Of a DNA stretch of 64,000 nucleotides, positions 10,571-64,000 are shown one piece after another. Below the pieces are notes generated by a model. It ran no database searches and was not told where the DNA came from. It was given only the letters and a program-made list of their open reading frames with translations. Source of the stretch: Octopus sinensis (Eukaryota). How positions within the stretch are numbered: position 1 is the first letter of the stretch; each line of letters begins with the position of its first letter. Both the position numbers and the translations under genes were made by a program. The stretch is from contig NC_042999.1 of the NCBI RefSeq assembly GCF_006345805.1, forward strand, positions 26,412,001-26,476,000, read 5' to 3'.

Positions 10571-11050
10571 TGGTAGTATTTGTGGGGTTTGTTGTAGCGT
10601 TTGCGGTGAAGTTATTGTAGTTTTTTTTTTTTTTTTATTTAATTATAAGTCAGTGGACGGTGAAAACATACCGCAACCAATTTAGCAATAACTGTGAAAC
10701 ATTTGCCAATGTGACAAATATCCATTAAGGAATGTAAACCGCGGTGTCATAAATGTGTGCGTTAGGTTACCAATTGGGAGATTAAATTTCTCTTTACGAC
10801 TCACATTACTTTCTCAGAAGTGAAAGTTTATAGCAATGTCCCGTGAGATGCGCAGACTTTAGAAGTAAAACGCTAATTCAATCATGTTTTACAATCTGAT
10901 GCAAACGAGTAGAAGCCGTAACACGTTTAACATTTATGTCCACAAATGAAGTTAAAAATGACAATAGAATATGTTATATCTCTACGTACTTATACGCCAT
11001 ATAAGATATCGCTTCAATTTCTAAACGTGTGTGTTTGTGAGTGCGCGTGT

Positions 11051-11800
11051 ATGTGTGTGTAGTAAATATATCGTATACATATTTGTGTGTGTGTGTAGTA
11101 AATATATCGTATACATATTTGTGTGTGTGTGTGTGTGTAGTAATATATCGTATACAAATTTGTGTGTGTGTGTATGTGTGTGTAGTAAATATATCGTATA
11201 CATATTTGTGTGTGTGTGTGTAGTAAATATATCGTATACATATTTGTGTGTGTGTGTAGTAAAATATCGTATACAAATTGTGTGTGTGTGTAGTAAAATA
11301 TCGTATACATATTGTGTGTGTGTGTAGTAAATATATCGTATACATATTTGTGTGTGTGTGTGTGTAGTAACTATATCGTATACAAATTTGTGTGTGTGTG
11401 TAGTAAATATATCGTATACATATTTGTGTGTGTGTGTAGTAAATATATCGTATACATATTTGTGTGTGTGTGTAGTAACTATATCGTATACATATTTGTG
11501 TGTGTGTGTAGTAAATATATCGTATACATATTTGTGTGTGTAGTAAATATATCGTATACATATTTGTGTGTGTGTGTAGTAAATATATCGTATACATATT
11601 TGTGTGTGTGTGTAGTAAATATATCGAATACATATTTGTGTGTGTGTGTGTAGTAAATATATCGTATACATATTTGTGTGTGTGTGTAGTAAATATATCG
11701 TATACATATTTGTGTGTGTGTGTAGTAAATACATCGTATACATATTTGTATGTGTGTGTAGTAAATATATCGTATACATATTTGTGTGTGTGTGTGTATG
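11051..11800. repeat. Minisatellite of ~23 units of ~29-40 bp: AGTAAATATATCGTATACATATTT plus variable (GT)n
   Basis: Direct inspection; constant core with variable GT spacer. Confidence 0.97.
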
Positions 11801-62862: not shown

Positions 62863-62896
<34 letters not shown>

Positions 62897-62899
<3 letters not shown>

Positions 62900-64000
62900 T
62901 ATATAAAAGGGCTTAGTAAAATAAATTACCTTGCCACATACTGAACTCATTAGAAATAGTAGCTAAAAAAAAACTTTTTTAAAACTATTTCTAATACTTA
63001 AAGAAAATCTCTCTCATATAGTGTTTGCTCAATTCAACTCACGAAAGTATGGGGGTAAAGACATTAAAAAATCAAATGCAAAGGTTATTTGAGAACGTAC
63101 GTTTCAAGATTAGTCAACTCGACATTTCTATCATCAGCTCAGAACTCCTTGGTTTGGATTTGAAAACACTGAAAGTGGGAGCATACCCTTTCGGCTTCTT
63201 ATCGCTTCTGAAGATCTGCTCGAAACTAACAGTGCCAGCAAACCCAAAATATGCAAGCGAAGAATTTCTGCTCACCCCTTTCCACCAGCGTGGGTTAAAA
63301 TCAGTAAACACTATGCTTTTTCGGTAAAATCCGAAGAATTAAATAGAGAGAGATGAATTATAATTTCAACAATTGAGGGTAAAATTAATTAATTATTAAT
63401 CAATTTCACCAAGTATTCAGTATGTAAAGGGACCATTTAAGGCGAATTCAAATTATTGCATTATATAAAAGGGCTTAGTAAAATAAATTACTTTGCCACA
63501 TACTGAACTCATTAGAAACAAATAACCTTTGCATTTGATTTTTTAATGTCTTTACCCCCATACTTTCGTGAGTTGAATTGAGCAAACACTATATGAGAGA
63601 GATTTTCTTTAAGTATTAGAAATAGATTAAAAAAAGTTTTTTTTTAGCTACTATTTCTAATGAGTTCAGTATGTGGCAAAGTAATTTATTTTACTAAGCC
63701 CTTTTAAATAATGTATAATTTGAATTCGCCTTAAATGGTCCTTTACATACTGAAACTTGGTGAAATTGATTAATAATTAATTAATTTTTACCTCAATTGA
63801 AATTATAATTCATCTCTCTATTTAATGCTTCGGATTTTACCGAAAAAGCAATAGTGTTTACTGATTTTAACCCACGTTGGTGGAAAGGGTAGAGCAGAAA
63901 AATTCTCGCTTGCATATTTTGGGTTTGCTGGCAATGTTAGTTTCGCGCAGATCTTCAGAAGCGATAAGAAGCCGAAAGGGTATGCTCCCATTTCAGTGTT
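62897..64000. mobile_element. Head-to-head pair of a ~560-bp non-coding hammerhead-bearing unit (Penelope pLTR or retrozyme-like); continues beyond the window
   Basis: 62898-62957 is repeated at 63459-63518; 63519-64000 is the reverse complement of a circular permutation of the unit. Confidence 0.88.
63090..63141 (-). ncRNA. Type-I hammerhead ribozyme motif, canonical core
   Basis: tgag-CTGATGA-taga..gtc-gagtt-gac..tctt-GAAAC-GTAC-GTT-ctca. Confidence 0.72.

What the first reader, a model, noticed from the sequence alone, without database searches (positions are those of the whole stretch)
62897..64000. ~560-nt hammerhead unit with terminal redundancy; the inverted partner starts 2 nt after the predicted cleavage site
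Seen: the left copy (sense is minus) is one full unit plus ~60 nt of redundancy and ends at a (TA)n tract. Predicted cleavage falls between 63094 and 63093, giving a product starting CTCAAATAACC. The right copy (sense is plus) begins at 63519 with CAAATAACC and reads through the permuted junction. Inference: the cDNA was copied to the 5' end of a self-cleaved RNA from a multimeric or circular template. That would be indirect evidence of ribozyme activity in vivo, as in retrozymes or PLE pLTRs. The right arm has many 1-nt indels that may be assembly error.
Basis: partly seen in the sequence, partly recalled or inferred. Interest (0 to 1): 0.82.

Follow-up and report, generated by a model that had tools for sequence, protein, structure and literature searches.

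The report
Penelope-type hammerhead retrozyme in TA repeats
This is one of at least a thousand copies of a non-coding 562-base repeat carrying a predicted self-cutting hammerhead RNA, inserted head-to-head into TA microsatellites with the ends typical of Penelope retrotransposons; copy starts are about threefold enriched just behind the predicted cut site, a likely genomic footprint of ribozyme cleavage, although most copies read through it.

Summary
In detail: a 562-nt unit with a type I hammerhead, and an inverted arm that starts at unit position +3 (63519). Beyond the window that arm runs on as a 5.5-unit tandem ending in (TA)n, with no Penelope ORF nearby. The unit is a large non-coding family (at least 878 + 1030 exact 3' junctions). 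The ribozyme core is conserved and the RNA fold shows compensatory changes. Copies sit in (TA)n, mostly as head-to-head pairs with two fixed 3' ends 101 nt apart; 66 of 69 pairs have one end of each kind. This is the Penelope 'tail' signature. The 60-nt 'terminal redundancy' is incidental (random 5' truncation). The pile-up test is partly met: 5' ends are 3-4-fold enriched at +1..+14 and not upstream of the cut. But about 91% of passes read through, a second hot spot (+43..+56) has no ribozyme, and snap-back or stalling could also explain the excess. Verdict: a new family of animal non-LTR retrozyme, likely mobilised by a Penelope-like element, with suggestive indirect evidence of cleavage in vivo. 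Cleavage, circles and the partner element are untested.

The parts
62868..62896 (.). (TA)n target microsatellite, left flank
   Evidence: nearly all family 3' ends abut (TA)n
62897..63518 (-). Left arm: unit 138-562 then 1-197; ends at the 'short' 3' end (unit ~196, UAUAAU motif)
63090..63141 (-). Type I hammerhead: stem I (63141-63138 with 63093-63090), core 63137-63131, stem II with U.U base pair and internal loop 63130-63106, GAAA 63105-63102, 2-bp stem III with palindromic loop (likely works as a dimer); predicted cut 63094/63093
   Evidence: direct; conservation in 55 loci; stem I U-A > U.G > C-G change; stem III self-dimer -11.6 kcal/mol
63007..63218 (-). Predicted long paired arm carrying the ribozyme (unit ~341-500 pairing internally and with ~12-87); approximate limits, 5' strand extends to about 63315
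   Evidence: fold z -5.8, circular fold z -5.9, 11 compensatory pairs over the unit
63359..63459 (-). Internal copy of the 101-nt 'tail' (unit 197-297) between the two fixed 3' ends
63518..63519 (.). Head-to-head inversion junction: left arm 5' end at unit 138, right arm 5' end at unit +3, no overlap or insert
63519..64000 (+). Start of the right arm; continues outside the window as 5.5 tandem units to G000:C3:26478612 and ends at the 'long' 3' end (unit 297, UUAUA motif) in (TA)n; next hammerhead about 25-70 nt past the window end

Best explanation
It is a non-coding, hammerhead-bearing 562-nt repeat inserted head-to-head in a TA microsatellite, likely a non-LTR retrozyme moved in trans by a Penelope-like element (PLE). 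Shown: fixed paired 3' ends, (TA)n targets, multi-unit arms, a conserved ribozyme core and a covarying fold. Inferred mechanism: read-through transcripts of tandem copies self-cleave (probably as ribozyme dimers) into monomers, which may circularise. A PLE RT/GIY-YIG protein nicks both strands of a (TA)n tract. One DNA end primes at the single-stranded UUAUA at unit 297 and the other at the UAUAAU at unit ~196. Each cDNA runs towards the RNA 5' end, usually through the ribozyme site (circle or uncut multimer), and the two cDNA ends are joined with 0-5 nt of microhomology or by snap-back. A minority of templates would be linear cleaved RNA, which leaves the excess of 5' ends at +1..+14; this window's +3 start is probably, not certainly, one of them.
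For: Family size: 1438 exact matches to unit +3..+32; 878 and 1030 exact 297|TA and 196|TA junctions. In 93 of 95 fetched stretches chosen only by a 3' junction (164 arms, 71 head-to-head pairs): 66 of 69 scorable pairs have one long and one short end, 1 long/long, 0 short/short, 2 atypical (p 5e-19 against 50:50). Tail at one end, inverted 5'-truncated partner and microsatellite bias are described PLE traits (PMC8557442, PMC3846280, passages), and the tail lies between two RT start sites in vitro, with both strands extended (PMC11167929, main text read). Intact GIY-YIG PLE ORFs ending in (TA)n exist in this genome. Ribozyme core in 55 loci: C3, G5, G8, A9, A14, A15.1 55/55; position 7 free (U/A/C); position 17 U or A, never G. 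136 pairs in 28 copies: 99.1% of cells paired, 11 pairs with two-sided change, 46 such cells vs 14.8 shuffled and at most 13 in slid controls. 99 of 164 arms cross the cut site, 29 hold two or more units. 15 of 67 multi-unit loci carry alleles unique to the locus and shared by all covering units, often on both arms. 5' ends: 17 vs 4.3 at +1..+14 (11 loci); genome-wide 25 at +1..+4 (7 exactly at +1) vs 7-9 expected, 0 at -2/-1 vs 3.5-4.3, 33 at -11..-2 vs 24-30, about 71 at +4..+15 vs 22-28 (searches counted by eye).
Against: No cleavage, circle or transcript is shown. No autonomous PLE shares DNA similarity with the unit among 50 GIY-YIG loci, so the partner is inferred. By locus the +1..+14 excess is p 0.005 and does not survive correction for 40 windows (0.19). 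Non-symmetric arms show no excess in the sample (4 vs 3.3). A second hot spot at +43..+56 (14 vs 4.8) has no ribozyme. +1..+14 holds one of the stronger cDNA snap-back hairpins (-2.4 kcal/mol), and 12 of the 25 hits sit at +4, where A/T microhomology inflates counts. Symmetric junctions also form at the stem III palindrome upstream of the cut, hence on uncut template (L154, and one more pair). One subfamily carries U4C (4 of 55), and the cleavage triplet is GUU, recalled as a weak one. In vitro, a PLE used uncut RNA and no RNA-seq reads began at its ribozyme site (PMC11167929); 8 of 9 predicted frog retrozyme dimers did not cleave (bioRxiv 10.64898/2026.07.22.740005). The structure was derived from the same alignment it was scored on, and the copies are related.
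Confidence: 0.72

Rival explanations
1. Same element and PLE mobilisation, but the 5'-end excess near the cut comes from RT stalling at the folded ribozyme or from cDNA snap-back at local inverted repeats on uncut RNA; the +3 start here says nothing about cleavage.
For: Mode of sample stops is +11/+12, not +1 (7 of 17); many junctions there are short hairpins; second hot spot at +43..+56; fold-backs at the stem III palindrome on uncut template; no excess among non-symmetric arms in the sample.
Against: Step at the cut: 7 starts exactly at +1 and none at -1/-2, background level at -11..-2 despite a 10-nt palindrome there. Three other windows with equal or stronger snap-back hairpins show no excess, and stops correlate with neither snap-back energy nor predicted pairing (p 0.35, 0.39, 0.14).
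Confidence: 0.2
2. The unit is only the pseudo-LTR of an autonomous PLE, and these are 5'-truncated insertions of it.
For: Hammerheads normally sit in PLE pLTRs (PMC4209133); architecture is that of PLEs.
Against: Arms repeat the 562-nt unit up to 3.1 kb without entering any ORF; 5' junctions lead to the inverted arm, (TA)n or unrelated flanks; longest ATG frame 92 aa, antisense; PLE ORF fragments in 7 of 135 loci and none at this locus or in the window, and the one inspected (L051) is a separate neighbour across a TA tract.
Confidence: 0.05
3. The inversion junction at 63518/63519 is an assembly or long-read fold-back artefact.
For: Indel-rich first two right-arm units; no independent read shown across the junction.
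Against: The two arms end at different, family-typical 3' ends in different flanks, which a fold-back read cannot create; 71 of 93 sampled loci have the same layout.
Confidence: 0.03

Closest known systems
Animal non-LTR retrozymes (Cervera and de la Pena 2020, PMC7229834; Li et al. 2026, bioRxiv 10.64898/2026.07.22.740005)
   Same: Non-coding tandem unit with a type I hammerhead, low GC (33%), stable self-paired fold, weak helix III and U.U at the base of helix II as in axolotl HHR_Amex2; unit length within the 51-972 bp range of the preprint.
   Different: Longer than the 150-450 bp of the 2020 paper. Dispersed, mostly head-to-head insertions in (TA)n with two fixed 3' ends, which the passages I read do not describe for retrozymes. 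Circular RNA and cleavage not tested here.
EN+ Penelope-like elements (Penelope/Poseidon, Neptune, Naiad; PMC8557442, PMC3846280, PMC11167929)
   Same: Inverted 5'-truncated partner, tail at one end only, palindromes at inverted junctions, partial tandems, microsatellite targets, hammerhead upstream of the 3' ends.
   Different: No ORF. Tail is 101 nt rather than 30-40. Both 3' ends carry short TA-like homology to the target, whereas the anole element started RT at non-homologous sites in vitro.
Non-autonomous Chlamys PLEs such as MRC1 (PMC8557442, passage)
   Same: Non-autonomous PLE derivatives with pLTRs and multicopy head-to-tail insertions.
   Different: Chlamys/Naiad lack canonical hammerheads and resemble their autonomous partners at the 3' end; no such similarity was found here.

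Membership tests
Type I hammerhead ribozyme | Conserved core CUGAnGA...GAAA...UH with three helices | tested here: met
   core conserved in 55 loci, position 7 variable, H17 U/A; no Rfam hit
Type I hammerhead ribozyme | Covariation in helices | tested here: met
   stem I pair U-A 24, U.G 2, C-G 2 of 28; stem II one-sided changes keep pairing; few events, related copies
Type I hammerhead ribozyme | Self-cleavage | not testable with these tools
   only the indirect 5'-end excess
Animal non-LTR retrozyme | Non-coding tandem repeats with a type I hammerhead in each unit | tested here: met
   5.5 units at this locus, 29 of 164 arms with two or more units, no long ORF
Animal non-LTR retrozyme | Low GC, no LTR/PBS/PPT, stable self-paired fold | tested here: met
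   GC 33%; circular fold z -5.9; no LTR-type layout in 93 loci; PBS/PPT not searched
Animal non-LTR retrozyme | Expressed as linear and circular monomer RNA | tested here: inconclusive
   only runs guessed to be RNA, kept as contigs, hold the unit; locus-wide shared alleles fit a reiterated monomer
PLE-mobilised insertion | Tail at one end; inverted 5'-truncated partner; microsatellite target | tested here: met
   66 of 69 pairs long/short; (TA)n flanks
Autonomous PLE | RT plus GIY-YIG ORF within the element | tested here: not met
   no PLE protein match at the locus or in the window
Non-autonomous derivative of a named PLE | Sequence similarity to the pLTR of an autonomous family | tested here: inconclusive
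   none among 50 GIY-YIG loci, of 5029 first-look candidates

The most novel reading that the evidence does not exclude
The thousands of insertions of this family record a PLE reaction at base resolution: a two-active-site complex primes both target strands on one retrozyme RNA, always once at each end of a 101-nt tail; circles give the multi-unit arms and ribozyme-cleaved linear monomers give fold-backs that stop at the cut. That would be insertion-level evidence both for PLE mobilisation of animal retrozymes and for hammerhead cleavage in the germ line.
Probability: 0.4. Interest if true: 0.75.

Novelty: new member of a known kind. Interest (0 to 1): 0.52.

Why it matters
The link between animal retrozymes and PLEs rests, in the papers I read, on co-occurrence and phylogeny, and the in vivo role of PLE-type hammerheads is called unresolved (PMC7761336, passages). 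This family shows PLE insertion hallmarks directly on a retrozyme, turns 'tail often at one end' into a near-strict one-of-each rule (66 of 69), and offers a large natural data set in which cleavage leaves a countable, testable mark.

Tried and rejected
Rfam: no hammerhead call at either threshold; MFE folding of the isolated motif was no better than shuffles. The first 40 loci were chosen by similarity to the whole arm and so bias 5' ends; they were left out of the hazard test and used only for description. From the 95-stretch sample I dropped L100 (internal duplication) and L146 (cut by the stretch edge), trimmed extra or duplicate arms in L074, L105, L132, L143 and L165, corrected L154 and L163 by hand, and left 2 edge-cut pairs out of the end-type count. 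Search for the autonomous partner: GIY-YIG family search and 20 longer stretches gave PLE families with their own hammerheads but no DNA similarity. A sequence-unrelated hammerhead family followed as a lead held no attached PLE ORF in 20 loci, bar one neighbouring fragment. Snap-back energy and RNA pairing did not predict stop density. Within-locus divergence (median 0.59%) was not below nearest-other-locus divergence (0.55%), so that comparison does not separate circle from linear multimer. Sequencing runs: no RNA holder listed on record; contigs cannot show ends or circles; the lay across the junction did not complete four times. An automated classification of the pattern hits was not carried out, so counts for searches are by eye. 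Earlier scan notes: nothing. Literature searches listed no paper describing this family or 5'-end mapping at a retrozyme cut site; paywalled papers, repeat databases and supplements were not seen.

Full report
Scope and numbering. The window lies at G000:C3:26412001-26476000 in a 2.72-Gb, microsatellite-rich genome. I guessed a cephalopod when choosing literature terms; that guess was not tested and nothing here rests on it. Unit position +1 is window 63093 on the minus strand; the unit is 562 nt.

The observation. The left arm (63518 to 62897, minus) is one unit plus 60 nt and ends in (TA)n; the right arm starts at 63519, unit +3. The hammerhead reads CUGAUGA, a stem II with a U.U base pair, GAAA, a palindromic stem III and GUU/C, with the cut between 63094 and 63093. 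Rfam does not call it and the isolated motif folds no better than shuffles. Outside the window the right arm continues for 5.5 units to C3:26478612 and ends at unit 297 in (TA)n. No PLE protein matches the window or the 20 kb fetched at the locus.

Is the ribozyme real? In 55 loci at 81-99% identity, C3, G5, G8, A9, A14 and A15.1 are 55/55; A6, G12 and A13 are 54/55; position 7 varies (U 45, A 5, C 5); position 17 is U 51 or A 4; U4 is C in 4. The whole arm folds far better than shuffles (z -5.8; as a circle z -5.9). On 28 of 39 available full units, 136 pairs are 99.1% kept, 11 with two-sided changes; 46 such cells against 14.8 in shuffles and at most 13 when slid. One of them is in stem I. 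The structure came from that alignment and the copies are related, so this is support, not proof. Stem III is 2 bp as a monomer and self-dimerises at -11.6 kcal/mol, the dimer design described for PLE hammerheads (PMC4209133, parts 1-2 of 4 read).

The family. Exact counts: 1438 for unit +3..+32, 878 for the 297|TA junction and 1030 for the 196|TA junction. I fetched all 108 such junctions in the first 136.6 Mb of C1 as 95 stretches; 93 were scored, giving 164 arms, 71 head-to-head pairs and 22 single arms. 3' ends: 75 at 297, 64 at 196, most others within 194-211 or 293-295. Of 69 scorable pairs, 66 have one long and one short end, 1 two long, 0 two short, 2 an atypical end. Arms meet with 0-5 nt overlap or a blunt join in 42 of 71 pairs. 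These are PLE traits: inverted 5'-truncated partner, a tail at one end, microsatellite bias (PMC8557442, passages), palindromes at inverted junctions (PMC3846280, passages). In vitro the tail lies between two internal RT start sites, both strands are nicked and extended, and the protein is predicted to be a dimer (PMC11167929, parts 1-2 of 4 read). Here the tail is 101 nt and both ends are unpaired TA-like motifs 3' of hairpins in the consensus fold. The 60-nt redundancy of the left arm is therefore just a 5' truncation at 138 set against a fixed end at 197.

The pile-up test. With a flat hazard of 0.00168 per nt, +1..+14 holds 17 arm starts against 4.3 expected (p 2.6e-6; 11 loci, p 0.005, 0.19 after correcting for 40 windows); neighbouring windows hold 3 and 4. 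Genome-wide degenerate patterns, sorted by eye into true starts and indel variants, gave 25 of 49 hits at +1..+4 (7 at +1, 2 at +2, 4 at +3, 12 at +4) and none at -2/-1; 33 of 95 at -11..-2; and 36 of the first 100 of 196 at +4..+15. Scaled by estimated copies at risk, that is 3.6, 0, 1.4 and 3.2 per nt per 1000, or 2.9-3.6-, 0-, 1.1-1.4- and 2.5-3.2-fold. share the +4 hits, a few hits are duplicates or two arms of one locus, and the at-risk numbers and filter pass rates are estimates. So there is a step at the predicted cut. Against a simple reading: 175 of 192 passes go through; 99 of 164 arms cross the site; +43..+56 has 14 starts against 4.8 with no ribozyme; 20 of 71 pairs are symmetric (permutation mean 3.3, maximum 10), 7 of them at +1..+14, and the remaining arms show no excess there (4 vs 3.3); +1..+14 contains a snap-back hairpin, although such hairpins do not predict stops elsewhere. 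The window's junction (138 with +3) is non-symmetric.

Template. Multi-unit arms reach 3.1 kb. In 15 of 67 loci with three or more unit pieces, alleles found at no other sampled locus are shared by all covering units, for example four alleles in 4 of 4 units at L122 and one in 6 of 6 at L144. That fits a reiterated monomer, as from a circle, but an unsampled homogeneous source array would look the same, and 162 private alleles are confined to one unit (later mutation or read error).

Partner. The genome holds many GIY-YIG PLE ORFs, including a young 781-aa family that ends in (TA)n at two positions about 40 nt apart and carries a U3-A8-type hammerhead-like motif. None of 50 loci shares DNA similarity with the unit, apart from two independent insertions of it. 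The partner remains inferred.

Comparison and verdict. The element meets the sequence-level definition of an animal non-LTR retrozyme (PMC7229834, passages; bioRxiv 10.64898/2026.07.22.740005, parts 1-3 of 5 read; PMC7761336, passages) and works like a non-autonomous PLE. It fails membership of autonomous PLEs (no ORF). My searches listed no description of this family or of 5'-end mapping at a retrozyme cut site; PMC13282606 (passages) has no mention of ribozymes; supplements and repeat databases were not seen. I score it as a new member of a known kind, of moderate interest: the kind is known, but the one-of-each end rule and the step at the cut site are quantifiable and bear on open questions. 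Cleavage, circular RNA, expression and raw-read support for this junction are all untested.

Noticed in passing
L031:5636-6045 (G000:C3:26478635-26479044), just beyond the right arm: A second fold-back element with its own hammerhead-like motif sits in the same TA tract; it is related at its 3' end to family B below.
   Followed up: partly
L174:742-1250 and L216-L235: A sequence-unrelated hammerhead family ('B', 1127 first-look candidates) with about 310-nt monomers, an apparently fixed 5' end 30-45 nt upstream of the ribozyme core and the same long/short end rule (ends about 73-77 nt apart; short end TATAAT, long end TTATA as in this family).
   Followed up: partly
L196-L200, L203-L209: Young autonomous PLE family, 781-aa ORF with RT and C-terminal GIY-YIG, ending in (TA)n at two positions about 40 nt apart, with a U3-A8-type hammerhead-like motif in its 3' region.
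   Followed up: partly
unit +43..+56 (window 63051-63038, minus): Second hot spot of 5' ends (14 arms, 9 loci, 5 symmetric pairs), mostly in older subfamilies; cause unknown (RNA 5' end or RT stall before a GC-rich helix).
   Followed up: partly
L075, L084, L095, L155: Subfamily with U4C in the ribozyme core together with the stem I change to U.G or C-G; a natural control for ribozyme activity.
   Followed up: no
L033/L034, L037, L069, L070; L056, L063, L064: Identical insertions with identical flanks at several places: segmental duplicates or redundant contigs.
   Followed up: no
window 11048-11795: 36-nt minisatellite, 20 copies, 90% matches.
   Followed up: no
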